Source: Stramenopiles sp. TOSAG23-2 (taxonomy: Eukaryota). Taken from it: a DNA stretch of 34,809 nt. The notes beneath the pieces are model-generated. The model did no database searches, had not been told where the DNA came from, and saw only the letters and a program-made list of their open reading frames with translations. Position numbers and translations under genes: made by a program. Location: assembly GCA_900128395.1 (NCBI GenBank), contig LT649346.1, positions 1-34,809 on the forward strand, in the 5' to 3' direction. Below, piece after piece: positions 82 to 30,840 of the stretch. Numbering within the stretch: position 1 is the stretch's first letter; each line of letters opens with the position of its first letter.

Positions 82-2928
82 TTAACACTCAATTTCATCA
101 CTATTAATAAAACCAATTTGTCGATGTTCACGATCAAAAATGGTAAGAAATGAACTCATAAATGTATCGCCTAATAATGTTCCACCAGTCACACTTCCAC
201 TATCGATACCAATTGTATACATCCGACTGTCGCAAAATACACCACCATTTCTCATGTACATTTGTGGTTTTAACAATAAATCAACATTGTTCTCTAATTG
301 GATTGTTAATATAGGATATGTTGAAATATCATCTTCATTCATTTCATAACATAAGCCTTGAAACACTCCTCGACCTGGCTCAATCTTATTACCATCATTA
401 TCTATACAAACACCAATTAATTGAGTTGCACTATTGTTACAATATGTTAACATTAAATCACGAAATGCATCAAATGCCGTTCGTGGTAATGTAAATGAAC
501 TAGACCCACTATCAACTATGGCATCACCACGATTGTAAACAGATGGATTAACACCAATTGATATATTATTGATGCGAAAATCTAAAAGGTTAACAACGTA
601 ATAGGTTTCTTTCATGATTTTTGTCCATTGAATTTTAACACCATTGATGTCATTGCTATTATTATCGTTATCGTTGCTATCAGCAGAACGTTTTATTGCA
701 TCATTTGCACCTAGATACAACATACCACCTGTATCTTTATGCATGCATATTGAAAACATATTTGATTTTATTATACCATTATCATACATGGTATCGATAA
801 TTGTTTTTGCACCAGAAGAACTTATGGAGCTATATGCAACACCAATAATCCCATCTAAATTAATAGGTTGTGTTGGATTTTTTAAATGATCTTCGTAAAT
901 AGCACCTATATACGCATTTTCAACTTTTGTTGAACTAGATGAGCCTGCAAGTGACATGGCATCTGTATATATTTGTGCTGAATATCCTGAACTATCAGCA
1001 TAAGAAATTTCATAGGAACATATTTTTTCATGGCATGGCTTACAAACTAAATTTGGCGCTGAACAATTCACTGCATGTGATGTTTTTGAATTTGAAGGTA
1101 CATATCTATTATCAGCATGACGAGTACAAGATGTACATCCCCACTTTGGAATACCTAGATCAGAGGATCCCGTATCAATTTGAAGCAAAAAGGTATTAGG
1201 TGGTGCCCCAATGGATACATTTAAATAATATTCACCATCTTTTGAAAAATAGGAATATAACGGAACTGCTATTTCACCCCATCCTTGGTCATTATTATTA
1301 TTATTATTATTATTTATTTTTTTCGTAAATGATGATGTGAGGTCATTGGAATGAGTTGTAAAATAAAAGTAATCAAATGATACGTTTCCTGGGGGGTTCA
1401 GATGCTGTTTTTTACCATTGTTATTTACATTATCATCATGTTGAATAATATTTAATTGTAAATCAATTGTAATATCGGCACTGTTTATTTTCTCGTCGTT
1501 ATTAAGATGATGCATGGTACAAACAATGTGGAATAATTCTAGATCATTCATATTGTTTATCATTATTGAATTGTTGTCGTCGTCTACTCTTATATTCTTC
1601 TTTTCAGTGCATTTTAATACATTGTTATTATTATCATTTATTATTACAACTTCTAAATTATATGTTAGTATTTCTTCAATATCAATACCTTTCACACGTT
1701 GTCCAATTAAATGTAAAAATGATGTTTGATACAACGAAAACTTAATATTTGGATAAAAGATAGAACCATTATTTTGTAGATTTGTTACTAATAAAAAATC
1801 ATTGGATGCAATTACAGATTCTTTTTTAACAAATATTTTTTGCGAGGTTGATTTAAAATAATTTTCCACTTCAATTCGTTTCCCGAAACGTCCATCATAA
1901 TTACCAATACCAATTTTATCAATTTTAACAGGTGCAATACTACCATTTTTGTAATAATGCACATATCCAGCTACAACATCACGATAATAACCTTTGTTTA
2001 ATAGATCAGTAGAATGTGTTATATCATTAGTAAAATAATACCATTGATTGTGCAATGATAAAAAACTACCATGTCTAAATGTTAAATCTTTGTTTGTCCA
2101 CCACTCTGACTTGTTATAATTATTTGGTTCTTGTCTAAATGAAGGTGTTAAAGATGATGTCTTAATGACAACCCCATTAAAGGTATACGGGCCATAAACC
2201 GATGAACTTGTTCCATAGAAACAACCCCATGATAAGTAAAAGTTCCCATTGTATTTATGTATAAACGGCTTATCATCCAATTTTCCAGGTCCATAATTTC
2301 CAATTGCATTAATTACATTTACTTTTCGAGGATGTTCAGCTAAAGACATCATATCATCATTTAGTTCTGCAATGTAATAATTGAACGTCCCGAAAATTAT
2401 ATAATGCTTTTTATTTGCTGGATCATAAATTATTCCTGGATCTCTTATTGTTGTTCCTAATTTTTTACCTAATTCATCTGATAAAAGCGGCTTCTTTAAA
2501 ACATCATTCCATGGGCCTGAAGGAGATGTGGGTGATTTTACTACTGCAATTTGAGTTGGCCCAATGGATAAGTACCAATAGTAATTATTATTTTTTTCAG
2601 CAGCATCAGTTGCCCAACACTCTGTGCGTGCATCTCTTGGTACCCATTCCATAGGTTTAAATTCTTGAACTTTTCGATAGGAAATTAAATCTGTTGTTTT
2701 CCAAATCCACCAATCATCCATACGAAAATTTGTGTTATTAGGAGAATAATCATGCGTTGCATATATGTAAATTGCATTACCAAAAGCACGTGCATGTGGG
2801 TCTGCCATGCCATTATTTTTGACTAGTGGATTTTCACCTTTTGTATTTGTAATTATTAAAATAATACAATAGTATACAAAAATTAAATTGATACATGTAT
2901 TATTATTATTATCCTTATGAAAAATCAT
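82..2928 (-). CDS. Secreted GH43 glycoside hydrolase + CBM-like domain + A1 (pepsin-like) aspartic protease fusion protein
   Basis: First ATG is at 2928 (the ORF track starts at an upstream TTG). Hydrophobic N-terminus. GH43 motifs ADPHARAF, WATDA, RDPG, HGS. CBM6-like segment RIEVENY...FDYFYF. Pepsin motifs YYLNVSIGAPP..IDTGSSDL, DGIIG, IVDSGSS, LLGDTF..FDR..IGF. One uninterrupted ORF. Confidence 0.88.
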   Translation of the reverse strand: MIFHKDNNNNTCINLIFVYYCIILIITNTKGENPLVKNNGMADPHARAFGNAIYIYATHDYSPNNTNFRMDDWWIWKTTDLISYRKVQEFKPMEWVPRDARTECWATDAAEKNNNYYWYLSIGPTQIAVVKSPTSPSGPWNDVLKKPLLSDELGKKLGTTIRDPGIIYDPANKKHYIIFGTFNYYIAELNDDMMSLAEHPRKVNVINAIGNYGPGKLDDKPFIHKYNGNFYLSWGCFYGTSSSVYGPYTFNGVVIKTSSLTPSFRQEPNNYNKSEWWTNKDLTFRHGSFLSLHNQWYYFTNDITHSTDLLNKGYYRDVVAGYVHYYKNGSIAPVKIDKIGIGNYDGRFGKRIEVENYFKSTSQKIFVKKESVIASNDFLLVTNLQNNGSIFYPNIKFSLYQTSFLHLIGQRVKGIDIEEILTYNLEVVIINDNNNNVLKCTEKKNIRVDDDNNSIMINNMNDLELFHIVCTMHHLNNDEKINSADITIDLQLNIIQHDDNVNNNGKKQHLNPPGNVSFDYFYFTTHSNDLTSSFTKKINNNNNNNNDQGWGEIAVPLYSYFSKDGEYYLNVSIGAPPNTFLLQIDTGSSDLGIPKWGCTSCTRHADNRYVPSNSKTSHAVNCSAPNLVCKPCHEKICSYEISYADSSGYSAQIYTDAMSLAGSSSSTKVENAYIGAIYEDHLKNPTQPINLDGIIGVAYSSISSSGAKTIIDTMYDNGIIKSNMFSICMHKDTGGMLYLGANDAIKRSADSNDNDNNSNDINGVKIQWTKIMKETYYVVNLLDFRINNISIGVNPSVYNRGDAIVDSGSSSFTLPRTAFDAFRDLMLTYCNNSATQLIGVCIDNDGNKIEPGRGVFQGLCYEMNEDDISTYPILTIQLENNVDLLLKPQMYMRNGGVFCDSRMYTIGIDSGSVTGGTLLGDTFMSSFLTIFDREHRQIGFINSDEIEC

Positions 2929-12779: not shown

Positions 12780-13181
12780 TCAAGCACTATCAATATTCAT
12801 TTTCATGCTACTACTATAATTACCATTGTCATTATTATCATTATTATCATTATTATTATTATTTTGCATAATATTTCCTAATTCTGCATTTAATTTTAAA
12901 TCTTGTACCATACCTAATAGTGCGTCTGTTGCTGTGCTTATTTCCTTTGTAGCAACTTTTAAACTTAACTCATCCAAAGTTGCCCTTTCTGCATCCCCAA
13001 TTTTTGATAACTCTAAAATACGTCTATAATTATTAATAACTTTTTTTACATTAGCATCGACATCTTGGTCAAATTCATCATATGCTTGTTTCATTGCATT
13101 TTCTTTAATTTTTTGTTTCTTTTTCTCTTCCAGTAAACGTAGGTTCGTCCGCCCTTTTTCCGTCAATCGTTCCAATGCCAT
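12780..13181 (-). CDS. MED22: Mediator complex subunit 22-like protein
   Basis: Likely start MALERL at 13181. VDANVKKVINNYRRILELSKI...LKVATKEISTATDALLGMVQDLK fits the Med22/Surf5 helical pattern (..NF..II..AK...RA..IV.A.ESLL.LV.DLK). Confidence 0.72.
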   Translation of the reverse strand: MALERLTEKGRTNLRLLEEKKKQKIKENAMKQAYDEFDQDVDANVKKVINNYRRILELSKIGDAERATLDELSLKVATKEISTATDALLGMVQDLKLNAELGNIMQNNNNNDNNDNNDNGNYSSSMKMNIDSA

Positions 13182-15568: not shown

Positions 15569-17707
15569 ATGACAGATACTACGCGATTGAACTTATTGGA
15601 TCGTTTATTAGAAGTTGCAAAAGATTTTGAAGCAGAACGTTTTCAAGATGAAGTGGAACATAAGAAACAATTACGTGCACAACAACAACATGTAGAAGAT
15701 GTGCAACAAAAATTATTCGAAGCAGAGAGTGAAATTGATGGATTAAAAGCAGAAATTAATCAATTGAAATTGGAACAATCGAAAATGTCCAAGAATGAAG
15801 ATAAAACAAATTTAATACGTGAAATTGTTGCGTTGCGTTTTATTGTTGCTGATTTAAATGCTGCCGCTCAACAACAAGCGGCAACAACAATAACGGCAGA
15901 CAAAACACCTACTACGTTATCCACTGCTACTAAAAATATATTAAAAACATTATGCAATAGCCGCGAGTTTTGCAAAGCGGCGTGTCTTGGAAATAAAGAA
16001 AAATTATTAAAAGCATTACAACCAGATTCATCGTTTCAAAATGTATTTTTTGATATTGTCAACACAGCATTAGTTAAAAGTTGTACTACTTCCTCGTCTG
16101 CTTTATTAAATAATAATAATAATAAAGTTGATAACGAGAATATCAATACCAATACTATTACTAATAATAATACTATGAATACAGTTGAAGATGCAAGTAC
16201 AAAGAAAATATTAGAACAAGGTTCAAAGATGGAAATATTAGATGTATTATTAGGTGCTGGCGCAACCATGGCAGCAAGAGATGAACGTGGTACAAATGAA
16301 ACCATTTTACACGGTGCAGCTGGATCTGGTTCTATTGCAGTAGTTGAAACAATATTAGCACAGGAAGGTGTTGATATCAATGCAGTTGATATTAATAATC
16401 GCACTGCATTGCATTCAGCAGCAGAAAGTTCCAATTCGGTACATACAATGCCAGTAATCAAAGCATTATTAATGGCTGGGTGTGATCCAACGATAAAGAA
16501 CAAAGACAATGAAACTGCGCAAGAAATTATTGAAAAGAAATATAATACAAATGTAACGAATACGAACAATAACAAAAATAGTAAAGAAAAAGGCGATAAT
16601 AAAAAAGACGATGATGATATTGAGGAAGAAGAAGAACATGAAAATTTGAAATTGATTGGACAAAGGTTGAAAAATGCATTAAATATTTTCTCCGATCCTA
16701 CTGTATTGTTTTGGAATTGTTCCGTACGCGCATTTGATGCATATAGTAGTGAAAATTTTAAAATTGCACTTGATGTATATGCAATGGCAATAAAATTAGT
16801 ACAAGAAAATTCTTTGCCTGTATCAAAGGAAGATCAATCGCGTTTATATTACAATCGGGCTAGGGCATCGACACATTTAAATTGTAGAGTAAAAGCTATG
16901 AAAGATTTAGAATCCGCATTAGACTTAGCTCCAAATTATACAAATGCACGTGCCTTATTATCGCAATGCCAATTTGATTTGTATCAATACGATCGTTGTG
17001 TACAAGGATTAAAATTAGTGTTAGATAAAGATCCAAATAATAACAAATGGAATAAATTAATAGTAGAAGCAAGACGTTTGCGCGATGCAAATCATTATGA
17101 AGTGTTAGGAATTGAAAGAAATGCTGATGAGAAAGAAATTAAAAAAGCATATCGAAATGCTAGTAAAAAATGGCATCCTGATAAACATCAAAAAAATGAA
17201 GACAATAAGGCAAGAGCGAATACTATGTTTAAACGTGTAAACGAAGCCAATCAAGTCTTGGGCGATTCATATAAGAAATTATTATATGATGTTGAATTAA
17301 ATAAAAAGTTAGAAAGTGAATTAAATGCAATGGAACAAATGAGGCAACGAGAGGAAGAATATGCTGCTGCAAGAAGAGCCAGTTATAACAATATTAAAGT
17401 TCCACGGCGTCCATCGACATATGGTAATGATTATGATATAAGAAATGAATACAATAAAAATAGGCAACAACAACAACAACATATGAATAAAAATAATCAA
17501 AATCGTACATCTATGGGTGGTGCAAGAGATATGTTCAATGAAGTGTTTTCAAGACGCCATGATGTTGATGTAGATGATGAAGTTATCAATCAATGGCAAA
17601 GAGTCTCCGTCGATACTGCTGGTACATATGGCAGTGCATTAGATAGTGATTATTACGAAGAGCAGACAGATGATGAGGAGGAAGAAGAAGAGCTTTTTGG
17701 GTATTAA
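15569..17707 (+). CDS. Coiled-coil + ankyrin repeats + TPR + DnaJ-domain co-chaperone
   Basis: First ATG at 15569. Ankyrin motifs ETILHGAAGSG and RTALHSAA. TPR motif LYYNRA....AL.LAPNY..A. J-domain HYEVLG...IKKAYR..SKKWHPDK. Confidence 0.88.
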   Translation: MTDTTRLNLLDRLLEVAKDFEAERFQDEVEHKKQLRAQQQHVEDVQQKLFEAESEIDGLKAEINQLKLEQSKMSKNEDKTNLIREIVALRFIVADLNAAAQQQAATTITADKTPTTLSTATKNILKTLCNSREFCKAACLGNKEKLLKALQPDSSFQNVFFDIVNTALVKSCTTSSSALLNNNNNKVDNENINTNTITNNNTMNTVEDASTKKILEQGSKMEILDVLLGAGATMAARDERGTNETILHGAAGSGSIAVVETILAQEGVDINAVDINNRTALHSAAESSNSVHTMPVIKALLMAGCDPTIKNKDNETAQEIIEKKYNTNVTNTNNNKNSKEKGDNKKDDDDIEEEEEHENLKLIGQRLKNALNIFSDPTVLFWNCSVRAFDAYSSENFKIALDVYAMAIKLVQENSLPVSKEDQSRLYYNRARASTHLNCRVKAMKDLESALDLAPNYTNARALLSQCQFDLYQYDRCVQGLKLVLDKDPNNNKWNKLIVEARRLRDANHYEVLGIERNADEKEIKKAYRNASKKWHPDKHQKNEDNKARANTMFKRVNEANQVLGDSYKKLLYDVELNKKLESELNAMEQMRQREEEYAAARRASYNNIKVPRRPSTYGNDYDIRNEYNKNRQQQQQHMNKNNQNRTSMGGARDMFNEVFSRRHDVDVDDEVINQWQRVSVDTAGTYGSALDSDYYEEQTDDEEEEEELFGY

Positions 17708-27002: not shown

Positions 27003-27768
27003 TTTAAAAAAAAAAAAAAAAGCATATTTTTATTGATAAAATGAACCTCTAACAATCGATGAGTGGGTGTAATTCGTGTGTGCATGTCTGTATATACCAA
27101 CATTGGCGCGGCGAGACAAACAAAAAAGGGGGAGATTTTTAAATATGTATGTTTTGAGTGTAAAAAAAAAATGTAAAATATATAAAAAAAAAATAAATGC
27201 ACCAACAAAAAATGTGCAAACTGCAGTGGCAAATCATCGCTATTATAAATAATTTCAATAATGAAGCACTAAAATTTTTAAGTCTATAATAAATCTTCGG
27301 TGTGGGGATGCGACGTTTCGCAAACAATAAATCCTATTTTATATTACAAATTTCCGATTAGTTTTTCCATAGAAAATATAACACGTATTACTATGTAAAT
27401 AGGAACACAGCAACACACGATCTAAATACCTTATACTGTATCTAACACTTTCTTCCACAAGTCGTCACATAATACTACCACATAGTACAATCCATTAAAT
27501 AATGTAATTTGTAATTCGTAATATTAAAATTGGATTTTTACTATACAAATTTTTCCTCACACAACTAAATTTTTGTCCTCCCTCCCACCTTATAACTTCT
27601 TCTTCACAAATTATTAGTAAAAAGTGCTAAATAAATAAATATTAGAAAGATAGAAATGAATAATACCTCTCTATCTACATCAAACAATATATCAAAAGTA
27701 TAGAATATATATATATATATATATTAATATTTTTTTATCCGTTTACTCCCTTCCTGATCATCATCATC

Positions 27769-30021
27769 ATGTCGATTCGTAAAAAGAATGCATGGGGTAT
27801 GAAACAAAAATTATTGCGGGAGAAGAAACAGAAAGAAAAGAAAAAACTTGAATTAAGGAAAGCAAAAAATGAACAAAAAGAACGTGAACAAGCAAGACTC
27901 GAAATAAAACATGCAAGTGAAAAGCGACAATATAGTAATAATAATAACAACAACAACAACAATCAAACTAATACGAGAAAAACAACCACCTGGGCAAACA
28001 TTAGCAATAAGCAAAGCAACAATATGAAAAAGCCATCGTTTCAACAATCATCGAAAAAAACAAATAATAATACAAATGATAATAAGGAACGTTCTGATGA
28101 TAGTTTATTTGCACATTTATTGGCGCAACAACAACTAGGGTCTCAAAATAACAATAAAAAAGGTAAGAAAAAGAAATCAAAGCAACCAAGTGATTTGCTG
28201 CAAGCGCCTATTATTACAACTAAACTATCACAAAATCAATTAAAAAAATTGAATAAGAAAAACAATAAAAAAAATAAAAAACCGACGTTCGAAAATAATC
28301 GGACTGTAACATACAGAGAAAAAAAAGTTGTTATTGTTACTAAAAAAGAATTTGAAGATACACAAAAAATTATACATGGTGAATTAGATGAGAGTGAAGT
28401 GAAAAAAATTACGGAAAGAAAGAAGAAGAAGAAACGCCCATCCACATTACGTAAAGCTATTAATCGTGATCGTAGAAAACGTTGGTTTGAAGCAAATCCT
28501 GAGGTTTTGATTGCAAAAAAAACATGTTTAAAGATGAATATGTATTTAAATGTTGCAAGATTATTGAAAATGGAAATGGCTATCCCAACAATATATAAAG
28601 ATAGTGAAGATTATGCTATTGTCGTTAATAATTTGGCGAAAGATAAATTAAAAGAATCTATTTCCCCTTCGAAAAAAAATAAGAACAAGAAATTAAAAAA
28701 TAATAATAAAAACAGCAACAAAAAGCAAGTGGGTAAGAAAAAGAAAGGTAGTAGTAAGAATAACAATAATGAAATGCAAGTTATTGAAGAAGAAGAAGAA
28801 GAAGAAAAGCAGGAAGACAAAGAAGTGAAAAATGCAGATAATAATTTAAATGATAATACAACTAATAATGACAATATTAATAGTGATTTTCCACCTTTAC
28901 CATCAATGGATTTCCCACCACTTCCATCGACAAATATAAAATCAAAGAAAAAACATGCTTTAAAAAAAAAAGAAACAAATACTACATTAGATAGTATTAT
29001 ATCCACAGCAGACAAAAATAATGATAACAATGCGAAGAAGAAAAAGAAGAATTCAACGGTGAAAAAAGGAGAAGTAAAACAGAAGAAGAAAAAAGTAAAT
29101 CCATTTGCTTCCCCATATCCAAAATTACCAAACGCATCACATACACGTGATTATGTAGATCAAATTGTTGATGTTGACATTGGTAAAAAAGTGAAACAAA
29201 TGTTTTCTATTCTTGTCAAATTGCAAGAAAAATTACGGAAAACAGATCCAGAACGGGCGAAATTACGAAAACGATATGTCGTTGGTACGAGAGAAGTATT
29301 ACGTTCATCTAAAAAGAAAACTACAAAATGTATTATTATGGCAACAAATATAGACGAATGTGGAGAACGTGGTGGTCTAGATGAAACGCATGGTAAAATT
29401 GTTGCTAATTGTAAACAAAACGATATACCTTTAATTTACGCATTGCGACGTCGTACTTTAGGAAAGGCGTTGGGGAAACATTTAAAAATGAGTTCCGTAG
29501 CAGTTTTAAATGCTGATGATGCAAGTGTGTATTACAAAGAATTATTAGTAATGGCTAAAGAACGTAAACAGCAATTTATAAATGGGAAAGAATCAAATTC
29601 TAGTAATGACAATCCTAATCAATATAATAATAATGTTGGCAGTGTAAAGACAGGGGAGAATAAAGGTGATGCGTCATCTGCCAACTCTATGGCTGCTAAG
29701 ACAAGCGAAATGCACTCATTTCATGATAAAAAACAGCATCATACTAATAGTTCACAAAAGCATTCGAAGAAAGGGAAGAAGAAGAAGAAAAATAATTCTA
29801 TTGATGAACTTGATAAATCAAGTCTATCTGTGATGAAACCATCTAAAGAATTATATGGTAATCGTAACACTGATATGGAAAAAAATGATACAAAACAAAA
29901 GCGAACTCAACTAAACCCAAGTGCTGGTGAATTTGTTCCAAATTATTATAATCCAGTTGCTAAGGAATGGGTACCTCCATCAACATATAATACTAATAAT
30001 AATGATAATGATAATGGTGAC

Positions 30022-30055
<34 letters not shown>

Positions 30056-30840
30056 GTGACTATAATAATAATAATAATAATAACAACAGTGTCATGGATA
30101 ACAACAATATAAATAATAAAAACCAATTTGCAATTGTACCATTTTCACATACTGCAAATTGGAGTGAGGCGTTAAAATTGCCAAAGCGTAATATTACATT
30201 ATTTAATCGAAATTTAGTTTTAGAACAAGATTGGAAAGATGATGGAAAGGGAGGTAGTAACTTAGGATTTGGTGCTTCGATTTATCCTAGTGCAATACTT
30301 TTAGCATCGTATTTTGAGAAAAACCAACAGATAATGAAAAACAAAACGGTGTTAGAATTAGGCGCTGGTGTTGGCCTTTGTGGGATAGCAGCATATTTAG
30401 CAGGTGCTAAAAAAGTATGCATAACTGATGGCGATGATGAATTATTGAAATTGATTAAAAAAAATGTGAAATCAAATATAAATTCATACGATGTACATAC
30501 ATCGCGTTTGCTTTGGGGAGATATGAATGACCATGCAATTATTCAAAGGGATGTTTTATCAACATCATTAAATAATAAATTTGACGTCATTTTTGGTAGT
30601 GATATTGTTGCATGCCCATATGTAGATGCATTAAATTCATTAATTGAAACCTTGGAATATTATTTCAACGAAAATCCAAAATTGTTGATATACATCAGTT
30701 ACAAACGTAGAAATGAAAGTGAAAACAATTATTTTTGGAATATTATTCAAGAAACAAAAGGATGGAAAACGGAGGATGTTAATATTGATATGTTTGAAGG
30801 GATGAATGAAGATTTATATTTATGTAAAATTAGTAATTAA
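27769..30840 (+). CDS. SBP2: SECIS-binding protein 2 (SID + L7Ae) fused to a C-terminal METTL21/Methyltransf_16-type lysine methyltransferase
   Basis: SID-like KKRPSTLRKAINRDR. L7Ae region RDYVDQ...LVKLQEK....DP..AK..KR.V.G.REV....K.....C.I.A.N......GGLD.......C....IP...AL.RR.LGKAL.K....S.V. MTase motifs G..IYPSA..L, VLELGAGVGL.G, TD, L.WG, D.I.GSDI. Confidence 0.9.

What the first reader, a model, noticed from the sequence alone, without database searches (positions are those of the whole stretch)
27769..30840. SBP2 fused to a METTL21-family lysine methyltransferase
Seen: SID-like and L7Ae regions of SECIS-binding protein 2 (about 28420-29570) continue without a stop, through a poly-Asn linker, into a complete seven-beta-strand MTase (about 30130-30837). 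Known: SBP2 recruits eEFSec for UGA recoding, and Methyltransf_16 enzymes (METTL21, EEF2KMT, yeast Efm proteins) methylate lysines on elongation factors and chaperones. I know of no described SBP2-MTase fusion. Inference: a Rosetta-stone hint that the selenocysteine machinery (eEFSec, or the ribosome/eEF1A) is regulated by methylation.
Basis: partly seen in the sequence, partly recalled or inferred. Interest (0 to 1): 0.75.

Follow-up and report, generated by a model that had tools for sequence, protein, structure and literature searches.

The report
SBP2 fused to a lysine methyltransferase
In one uncultured marine protist, the protein that reads the selenocysteine signal in mRNAs has become joined to a protein methyltransferase that is a separate gene in its relatives; the join is real but young, and it is not known whether it matters for function.

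Summary
Window 27769-30840 (+) is one 1023-codon frame. It holds an SBP2-type RNA-binding domain (human SBP2 E 2.7e-22), an SBP2-like basic motif, two PAM2-like motifs, an Asn-rich linker and a complete Methyltransf_16 domain (88 bits; AlphaFold pLDDT 88; nearest solved structure METTL21A).

The join is probably not a misassembly. Five other public contigs of the same species-level cluster carry the same fused frame, each with a different in-frame linker variant. One metagenome contig diverges inside the AAT tract, and this is unexplained.

The fusion is lineage-restricted:
- In 79 of 79 other SBP2 loci the frame stops 24-178 codons after the RNA-binding domain, against 420 here.
- None of these loci holds this methyltransferase within its flanks.
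- The closest methyltransferases are stand-alone proteins of about 243 aa that begin exactly where the domain begins here.
- The same methyltransferase subfamily is fused to a kinesin elsewhere.

A single fused transcript or protein is not shown, because all read contigs break at the repeat.

Best reading: a young, genuine fusion gene with both parts intact. Coupling of the methyltransferase to selenocysteine recoding is speculative (about 0.2).

The parts
27769..30840 (+). Whole fused ORF, 1023 codons plus stop
   Evidence: The N-terminus aligns with that of the unfused relative P0002. Five other contigs carry the same fused frame.
28420..28485 (+). Basic motif (residues 218-239) at the place of the C-terminal part of the SBP2 Sec-incorporation domain
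   Evidence: It lines up with human SBP2 about 525-545, but that stretch has no significant score of its own. It is conserved in relatives (A3: K218, K219, K221, K222, L227 and R235 are invariant or nearly so).
29095..29571 (+). SBP2-type RNA-binding domain (residues 443-601), containing the L7Ae motif (Pfam residues 496-586)
   Evidence: human SBP2 E 2.7e-22; profile E 6.1e-54.
29902..29946 (+). PAM2 motif (residues 712-726)
   Evidence: Pfam PF07145, 20.5 bits against a cut-off of 20. The same motif sits at the C-terminus of unfused relatives.
29947..29976 (+). Second PAM2-like motif (residues 727-736). This is the ancestral C-terminus of SBP2 in this clade.
   Evidence: It aligns with the last residues of P0002, P0005 and the L003 ORF, which stop 2-8 codons later.
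29983..30126 (+). Asn-rich linker (residues 739-786), AAT-based and variable in length between strains
   Evidence: Six different in-frame versions are seen (window, P0153, P0163, P0164, P0165, P0166). All Logan contigs break here.
30094..30096 (+). Internal ATG (Met776), 11 codons before the methyltransferase core. A possible separate start.
   Evidence: Gene calls P0172, P0173 and P0157 begin here.
30127..30837 (+). Complete Methyltransf_16 seven-beta-strand methyltransferase (residues 787-1023)
   Evidence: family alignment A2; AlphaFold model with pLDDT 88.2; Foldseek best match METTL21A at 1.3e-16; profile against METTL21A 1.2e-34.

Best explanation
This is a genuine and evolutionarily young gene fusion in an uncultured, AT-rich marine protist. 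A complete SBP2 normally ends, in this clade, right after its PAM2 motifs. Here it has lost its stop codon and runs through a slippage-prone Asn linker into a formerly stand-alone methyltransferase of about 240 aa (Methyltransf_16 family), whose own initiator Met is gone. Both parts look intact, so the likely product is one protein of about 117 kDa. The SBP2 part would bind SECIS elements and the ribosome. The PAM2 motifs would bind the MLLE domain of poly(A)-binding protein. The methyltransferase would then be held at the 3'-UTR, poly(A) and ribosome neighbourhood, where it could methylate a nearby protein. Shown here: the fused frame, its recurrence in other contigs, the integrity of both domains, its restriction to one lineage, and the presence of both halves in RNA libraries. 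Inferred: a single polypeptide, the enzyme's activity, the tethering, and any substrate. I put a real fused gene product at about 0.65-0.7, and use of the tether for selenocysteine recoding or translation at about 0.2 overall.
For: 1. Recurrence. In the 90% cluster of P0153, 5 of 13 members (P0153, P0163, P0164, P0165, P0166) run from the SBP2 part through the linker into the methyltransferase. Two of them are near full length (1011 and 1001 aa). Each has a different in-frame linker variant, including non-Asn changes.
2. Ancestral state. The L002 and L003 SBP2 ORFs end at true stops 2 codons after the PAM2-like motif, and the next downstream ORFs of 80 aa or more lie on the other strand. P0002, P0028 and P0051 also end 1-8 residues after the motif.
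3. Uniqueness. In 79 of 79 other loci the frame stops 24-178 codons after the end of the RNA-binding-domain match, against 420 here. The methyltransferase is absent from all 80 loci by tblastn. A subfamily HMM found 0 hits among 8260 six-frame ORFs, with a positive control of 271.9 bits.
4. The methyltransferase was a separate gene. Eight of 32 relatives in A2 start with Met exactly at the position of Phe787. The closest is P0007, 243 aa and 51% identical.
5. Integrity. The window's protein has the family residue at all 19 invariant and 9 nearly invariant columns of A2. The model has pLDDT 88.2 and a full Rossmann-type fold. Between strains there are 0-5 substitutions in 237 methyltransferase residues and no indels.
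6. RNA. Contigs from 3 RNA runs cover both halves, while the flanks 27283-27604 have depth 0 in all three RNA runs and 7-17 in the DNA run.
7. Coding poly-Asn is normal in this genome. Five of 7 AAT or ATT runs of 5 or more units lie in long ORFs, all in the Asn phase.
8. Precedent for SBP2 recruiting a protein methyltransferase. Human SBP2 binds the PRMT5 methylosome, whose target there is unknown (PMC5605228, abstract and passages).
Against: 1. No contig from the sequencing runs bridges the linker. RNA and DNA contigs alike stop at 29982 and resume at 30095, so a single transcript is not shown.
2. L001, a metagenome contig 97% identical over 5 kb, departs from the window inside the AAT tract. 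Its last 67 or so bases match nothing in the window.
3. Bridging proteins are a biased sample, because out-of-frame variants would be called as separate proteins. One contig (4518 nt) does carry split calls (P0169 and P0157).
4. Met776 offers a separate start, and P0172 and P0173 are called from it.
5. Depth is higher on the methyltransferase half in 2 of 3 RNA runs (X16: 3.2 against 6.3; X17: about 6 against 14.6). For X17, an oligo-dT library, 3' bias could explain this.
6. Against functional coupling: the fusion is seen in one species-level cluster only, and the same subfamily is fused to a kinesin in P0034 and P0069.
7. I could not learn whether the ENA contigs are DNA or cDNA.
Confidence: 0.62

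Rival explanations
1. One locus, two products. The frame is continuous, but the methyltransferase is made on its own, either from a transcript that starts in the linker or by internal initiation at Met776. SBP2 would act without it, for example through termination, cleavage or polyadenylation within the linker. On this reading the fusion is only apparent.
For: Met776 lies 11 codons before the conserved core. Gene calls P0172, P0173 and P0157 start there. Depth is higher on the methyltransferase half in X16 and X17. No bridging RNA contig exists.
Against: The ancestral initiator position is now Phe787. No stop has arisen in any of 6 linker variants. RNA contigs X16 and X17 hold 36 further letters on the upstream side of 30095, beyond Met776. 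DNA contigs break at the same place as RNA contigs, so the break comes from the repeat and is not a transcript end.
Confidence: 0.2
2. The fused protein is real but the fusion is neutral. It was a chance join of two unrelated genes. Each domain keeps its old job, and the methyltransferase has no role in selenocysteine recoding. This shares the anatomy of the best explanation and differs only on function.
For: The fusion is confined to one species-level cluster. The linker is a hypervariable microsatellite. The same methyltransferase subfamily is fused to a kinesin motor in P0034 and P0069. SBP2-like proteins of other protists carry other added domains, such as zf-met and PAP_assoc.
Against: Nothing found here speaks directly against it. 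About half of the characterised Methyltransf_16 enzymes act on translation factors or ribosomal proteins (established knowledge, recalled). Human SBP2 recruits a protein methyltransferase complex (PMC5605228).
Confidence: 0.45
3. Assembly artefact. Two unrelated loci that both carry coding AAT repeats were joined through the repeat, which would preserve the Asn frame automatically.
For: L001 joins the SBP2 3' end to a different sequence after the AAT run. Several contigs of this organism are visibly chimeric (P0167, P0171, P0009). Logan contigs cannot bridge the tract.
Against: Five further contigs make the same join with different linker versions that contain non-repeat landmarks. The longest pure AAT run is only 30 nt, shorter than ordinary reads. 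The independent DNA contigs of X3 keep 27 and 33 further letters on the linker side of 29982 and 30095.
Confidence: 0.06

Closest known systems
Human SECIS-binding protein 2 (SBP2; PDB 7zjw and 7zjx)
   Same: The RNA-binding domain, including the SBP2-specific stretch before the L7Ae motif, matches at E 2.7e-22 for the single sequence and 6.1e-54 for the profile. The basic motif lines up with the C-terminal part of the Sec-incorporation domain. The Gly of the L7Ae motif is kept.
   Different: It lacks the long metazoan N-terminal domain. It has C-terminal PAM2-like motifs and a methyltransferase domain. In mammalian SBP2 the residues after the RNA-binding domain are dispensable (PMC3328465, passages).
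METTL21A, METTL21B and METTL21D (Methyltransf_16 lysine methyltransferases acting on Hsp70, eEF1A and VCP)
   Same: The same Pfam family and fold. Foldseek gives 1.3e-16 with target TM-score 0.85 to 4lec. The profile gives 1.2e-34. The SAM motif I and the acidic post-I residue are present.
   Different: Identity is only 20-26%. This is a distinct subfamily with its own conserved N-terminal segment. The DxxY tyrosine is replaced by an invariant Ala, with a Tyr three residues later. The substrate is unknown.
Naegleria gruberi SPS2 fused to a methyltransferase domain (da Silva et al. 2013, as cited in PMC4561486)
   Same: It is another protist in which a component of the selenocysteine machinery is fused to a methyltransferase domain (PMC4561486, passage).
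   Different: The partner is selenophosphate synthetase, not SBP2. I did not see the type of methyltransferase, because the 2013 paper was not read.
Human SBP2 interaction with the PRMT5 methylosome (PMC5605228)
   Same: SBP2 brings a protein methyltransferase to the selenoprotein mRNP, and its target there is unidentified (abstract and passages).
   Different: That association is non-covalent, and PRMT5 is an arginine methyltransferase of another class.

Membership tests
SBP2 / SECIS-binding protein family | An L7Ae-type RNA-binding domain that is closer to SBP2 than to other L7Ae proteins, including the SBP2-specific stretch upstream of the L7Ae motif | tested here: met
   human SBP2 at 2.7e-22 against 3.1e-4 for the best L7Ae; profile at 6.1e-54 against 8e-08. 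The alignment starts about 50 residues before the Pfam L7Ae match.
SBP2 / SECIS-binding protein family | The conserved glycine of the L7Ae motif that is needed for SECIS binding (PMC3328465, passages) | tested here: met
   A Gly is aligned with the Gly of the human L-G-L-R-E-V stretch. It is invariant in A1 (G67) and at 90% or more in A3 (G506). Equating this Gly with the mutated one in the paper is my inference.
SBP2 / SECIS-binding protein family | A Sec-incorporation domain with an IILKE-type motif | tested here: inconclusive
   A basic motif at residues 218-239 lines up with human residues about 525-545 and is conserved in relatives. That stretch has no significant score of its own, and the window has A-I-N-R-D where human has I-I-L-K-E.
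SBP2 / SECIS-binding protein family | SECIS binding and support of Sec insertion, with Sec machinery and selenoproteins in the same genome | not testable with these tools
   No genome is held for this window. No Rfam family, SECIS included, reaches its gathering score in the window.
Methyltransf_16 (MT16) protein methyltransferases | A Pfam PF10294 match above the gathering score over nearly the whole model | tested here: met
   88.3 bits against 21, covering model positions 15-171 of 174.
Methyltransf_16 (MT16) protein methyltransferases | A seven-beta-strand fold with the Gly-rich SAM motif I and an acidic residue after strand 2 | tested here: met
   The model has pLDDT 88.2. The 11 best Foldseek matches are all MT16 enzymes. 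E88, G90, G92, G94 and T111-D112-G113-D114 are conserved.
Methyltransf_16 (MT16) protein methyltransferases | The (D/E)xx(Y/F) motif after strand 4 (a family hallmark, recalled) | tested here: not met
   The window and all 32 relatives have D170-x-x-A173-x-P175-Y176, with P175 at 90% or more. The Ala aligns with the Tyr of METTL21A. This is a subfamily variant and not a loss in this gene.
METTL21 subgroup (orthology) | Groups with METTL21A-D to the exclusion of other MT16 members | not tested
   Only a ranking against solved chains is available: METTL21A 1.2e-34, METTL21D 7.7e-30, METTL21B 2.4e-27, CaM-KMT 1.2e-16, EEF2KMT 3e-14. No tree including all human and yeast members was made.
PAM2 (PABP MLLE-binding motif) | A Pfam PF07145 match at or above the gathering score | tested here: met
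   20.5 bits against 20, which is marginal. Relatives score 15-19.9 bits in 6 of 13 tested. The motif recurs at the C-terminus.
PAM2 (PABP MLLE-binding motif) | Binding to the MLLE domain of PABP | not testable with these tools
   The organism's PABP is not available.

The most novel reading that the evidence does not exclude
The fusion records a real functional coupling. The tethered Methyltransf_16 enzyme methylates a component that SBP2 meets during UGA recoding, such as eEFSec or another translational GTPase, a ribosomal protein near the SBP2 site, or PABP held by the PAM2 motifs. Its stand-alone orthologues in other eukaryotes would then do the same in trans. This would also name a candidate for the unidentified methylation target on selenoprotein mRNPs that the mammalian SBP2-methylosome work implies.
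Probability: 0.18. Interest if true: 0.75.

Novelty: new variant of a known kind. Interest (0 to 1): 0.4.

Why it matters
No post-translational regulator of SBP2 or eEFSec is established. A natural SBP2-methyltransferase fusion offers a concrete and cheap hypothesis: test the widespread stand-alone orthologues of this MT16 subfamily, whose substrate is unknown, on translation factors. The value is limited, because a fusion seen in a single lineage is weak Rosetta-stone evidence.

The PAM2 motifs may matter more generally. They recur at the C-terminus of SBP2 in several protist lineages. They suggest a direct SBP2-PABP link between the SECIS element and the poly(A) tail. I found no paper containing both the terms SBP2 and PAM2, and the two papers containing PAM2 and SECIS do not connect them.

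Tried and rejected
- **Own genome.** None is held, so the Sec machinery could not be sought.
- **Read contigs.** Every RNA and DNA contig breaks at the AAT tract and at the A-rich Lys tract near 29770-29800. This says nothing for or against a single transcript. The lack of RNA cover at 29859-30019 in X15 and X16 is not evidence.
- **Representative search.** It found 4515 hits and listed 150, none scoring as a two-domain match. I Pfam-checked 31 distinct proteins, and none has both L7Ae and Methyltransf_16. This search can hide fused forms, however. The species' own 1011-aa protein was not among the representatives.
- **Word-index searches in the 'near' length range.** One gave 1 hit, P0002, and one gave none. 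Sensitivity is low, so these are not evidence of absence.
- **ESM Atlas.** Only ordinary MT16 clusters came up, and no cluster combines both families.
- **Earlier findings of this scan.** None.
- **Rfam on the window.** Nothing reached a gathering score.
- **Literature.** No SBP2-lysine-methyltransferase fusion and no SBP2-PAM2 link. One search was uninformative. Supplements were not opened.
- **Pseudogene remnant.** I considered that the methyltransferase is decaying and rejected it. All conserved residues are kept, and between strains there are 0-5 substitutions in 237 residues and no indels.
- **L001's 5' end as a chimera.** Rejected. It is homologous to the window with indels, so L001's divergent 3' tip cannot simply be dismissed as a habit of that contig.
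- **Complex prediction.** Not run, because I claim no specific binding pair.
Full report
**What is there.** Window 27769-30840 (+) is one open frame of 1023 codons. The window has about 31% G+C. It is packed with long ORFs that look eukaryotic: an aspartyl protease, a scramblase, a DnaJ/TPR/ankyrin protein, an AAA ATPase and a SHIPPO-repeat flagellar protein. No genome is held for it. The runs that hold the stretch are marine metagenomes and a few very small runs, so the source is an uncultured marine protist. Pfam finds L7Ae at residues 496-586, PAM2 at 712-726 and Methyltransf_16 at 831-992.

**The SBP2 part.** Residues 443-601 match human SBP2 614-771 at E 2.7e-22, against 3.1e-4 for ordinary L7Ae proteins. 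A profile of this protein and ten relatives scores 6.1e-54 against human SBP2 and 8e-08 against L7Ae. The match includes the SBP2-specific stretch before the L7Ae motif and the glycine that SECIS binding requires (PMC3328465, passages). A basic motif at residues 218-239 lines up with the C-terminal part of the human Sec-incorporation domain and is conserved among relatives. That stretch alone is not statistically significant. I therefore file this part under the SBP2 family, with the SID feature inconclusive. SECIS binding and the presence of Sec machinery are untestable here.

**The C-terminus of SBP2 in this clade.** After the RNA-binding domain come two tandem PAM2-like motifs at residues 712-736. 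Several unfused relatives end 1-8 residues after such a motif:
- P0002 (625 aa; 56% identical overall, 78% in the RNA-binding domain).
- P0005, which is the ORF of L002.
- The ORF of L003.
- P0028 and P0051.

In L002 and L003 the stop is real. The locus continues for about 1.1 kb, and the next downstream ORFs of 80 aa or more lie on the opposite strand.

Across the 79 other SBP2 loci fetched from metagenomes, the frame stops 24-178 codons after the end of the RNA-binding-domain match in 79 of 79. In the window it runs on for 420 codons. Many of these loci are near-identical copies of the same organisms, so they stand for roughly a dozen lineages and not 79.

**The methyltransferase part.** Residues 787-1023 are a complete Methyltransf_16 domain.
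- Sequence conservation: in an alignment with 32 relatives, the window's protein has the family residue at all 19 invariant and 9 nearly invariant columns.
- Fold: the AlphaFold model has mean pLDDT 88.2, and its 11 best Foldseek matches are METTL21A, METTL21D and its Arabidopsis homologue, FAM86A, METTL21B and METTL21C.
- Family ranking: the subfamily profile ranks METTL21A first at 1.2e-34.
- Subfamily traits: it has its own conserved N-terminal segment, and it replaces the tyrosine of the DxxY motif with an invariant alanine, with a tyrosine three residues later.

I file it as an MT16 member of an uncharacterised subfamily. 'METTL21' is only the nearest solved group.

Its closest relatives are stand-alone proteins. 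P0007 is 243 aa and 51% identical, and its cluster includes members on contigs of up to 334 kb. Eight of the 32 relatives start with Met exactly where the window has Phe787. The ancestral start is therefore gone. The nearest Met is Met776, 11 codons upstream.

**Is the join real?** Logan contigs (k = 31) from three RNA runs and one independent DNA run all stop at 29982 and resume at 30095, so they cannot tell. The protein collection can. The 90% cluster of P0153 has 13 members.
- Five members bridge the join: P0153, P0164, P0166, and the near-full-length P0163 (1011 aa) and P0165 (1001 aa). Each has a different in-frame linker version, including changes to Lys, His, Ser, Gly and Asp. They therefore come from different assemblies and strains.
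- Four members are methyltransferase-side fragments (P0162, P0168, P0172, P0173).
- Four members are SBP2-side fragments (P0167, P0169, P0170, P0171). P0167 and P0171 run into unrelated or rearranged sequence.

Three results go the other way.
- L001, a metagenome contig 97% identical to the window over 5 kb, leaves the window's sequence inside the AAT run. It ends about 67 bases later in sequence found nowhere else in the window. Its other end is homologous to the window with indels and is not chimeric.
- One contig of 4518 nt carries split calls (P0169 and P0157).
- Bridging proteins are a biased sample, because out-of-frame variants would not appear as bridging proteins.

The longest pure AAT run is 30 nt, which ordinary reads span easily. 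I put a misassembly at about 0.06.

**Is it one transcript and one protein?** This is not shown. Both halves are in RNA libraries. The flanks 27283-27604 have depth 0 in the three RNA runs and 7-17 in the DNA run, so the RNA signal is not carried-over DNA. RNA contigs of X16 and X17 hold 36 further letters on the upstream side of 30095, beyond Met776. The DNA contig has a similar overhang, so the break comes from the repeat. Depth on the methyltransferase half is equal in X15 (4.0 against 4.1) and about twice as high in X16 and X17. For the oligo-dT run X17, 3' bias could explain that. Separate expression from Met776 stays open at about 0.2.

**How old and how wide is it?** All fused sequences are at least about 97% identical to the window outside the linker. 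No other SBP2 locus has this methyltransferase within the flanks held. tblastn found it in 0 of 80 loci. A subfamily HMM found 0 hits among 8260 ORFs, with a positive control of 271.9 bits. Of the 79 loci, 57 have at least 1 kb downstream and 31 have at least 3 kb. The fusion is therefore young, and it did not come from read-through between conserved neighbours.

The same methyltransferase subfamily is fused to a kinesin motor in P0034 and P0069. SBP2-like proteins of other protists carry zinc fingers or a PAP_assoc domain. Both partners are evidently prone to domain shuffling, which weakens the Rosetta-stone argument.

**Mechanism.** The most likely picture has three elements. An intact SBP2 binds SECIS elements and the ribosome. 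Its PAM2 motifs dock on PABP. An intact MT16 enzyme is tethered by a flexible Asn linker. The tether would raise the local concentration of the enzyme at the 3'-UTR, poly(A) and ribosome neighbourhood. Two points make a translation-related substrate plausible. First, many MT16 enzymes act on eEF1A, eEF2 or ribosomal proteins (recalled knowledge). Second, human SBP2 recruits the PRMT5 methylosome, whose target on selenoprotein mRNPs is unidentified (PMC5605228, abstract and passages). A second precedent for a fusion between the Sec machinery and a methyltransferase is Naegleria SPS2 (PMC4561486, passage; the primary paper was not read). None of this is tested. I give functional coupling about 0.2 and a neutral fusion about 0.45.

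**Novelty and score.** I found no SBP2-lysine-methyltransferase fusion and no SBP2-PAM2 link in the searchable literature. Supplements were not consulted. This is a new domain architecture built from two known families, which I rate as a new variant of a known kind. Interest is 0.4. The fusion is real and gives a testable hypothesis, but it is confined to one uncultured lineage, and its expression as a single protein is unproven.

Noticed in passing
window 29902-29976; relatives P0002, P0005, P0028, P0040, P0051, P0060, P0065, P0066, P0139, P0143, P0147, P0148, P0151; loci L002-L004, L007-L015, L020, L022: PAM2-like motifs sit at the extreme C-terminus of SBP2 homologues from several protist lineages. 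My regular expression finds one in the tail of 20 of 79 loci. Pfam PAM2 scores 15-19.9 bits in 6 of 13 relatives tested. This suggests a direct SBP2-PABP contact, which I did not find in print.
   Followed up: partly
proteins P0061, P0063, P0070, P0076, P0083, P0088, P0089, P0090, P0093; loci L005, L006: Another group of SBP2 homologues (9 of the 66 inspected) ends in an acidic or Ser-rich run followed by P-x-G-F-x-x-x-x-F. From recall, this resembles the C-terminal tail of ribosomal P-stalk proteins that recruits translational GTPases.
   Followed up: no
proteins P0034 (930 aa), P0069 (636 aa): The same methyltransferase subfamily, including its conserved N-terminal segment, is fused to the C-terminus of a kinesin motor protein in another organism.
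   Followed up: partly
L001:5118-5184 (corresponds to the point after window 30054): A metagenome contig of a 97%-identical strain leaves the window's sequence inside the AAT run. The new sequence starts with a GTAAG-like string, stays open in frame, and matches nothing else in the window or in the other 79 loci. It could be a chimeric tip, an insertion or intron, or an unfused allele.
   Followed up: partly
proteins P0139, P0151, P0147: SBP2-like L7Ae proteins of other protists carry zf-met or C2H2 zinc fingers (P0139, P0151) or a PAP_assoc (Cid1 poly(A) polymerase) domain (P0147) upstream of the RNA-binding domain.
   Followed up: no
L003:1110-1376 (-): L003 holds a second, partial SBP2 RNA-binding-domain match (53% identical over 89 aa). 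It lies on the opposite strand, about 4 kb upstream of the full gene.
   Followed up: no
proteins P0167, P0171, P0009: Several public contigs of this organism are visibly chimeric or rearranged. For example, P0171 joins residue about 262 of the SBP2 part directly to residue about 955 of the methyltransferase.
   Followed up: no
window 1291-1314, 12849-12863, 16109-16123, 30025-30081: Runs of 5 or more AAT or ATT units lie mostly inside long ORFs (5 of 7), always in the Asn phase. Coding poly-Asn tracts are therefore a general trait of this genome.
   Followed up: yes
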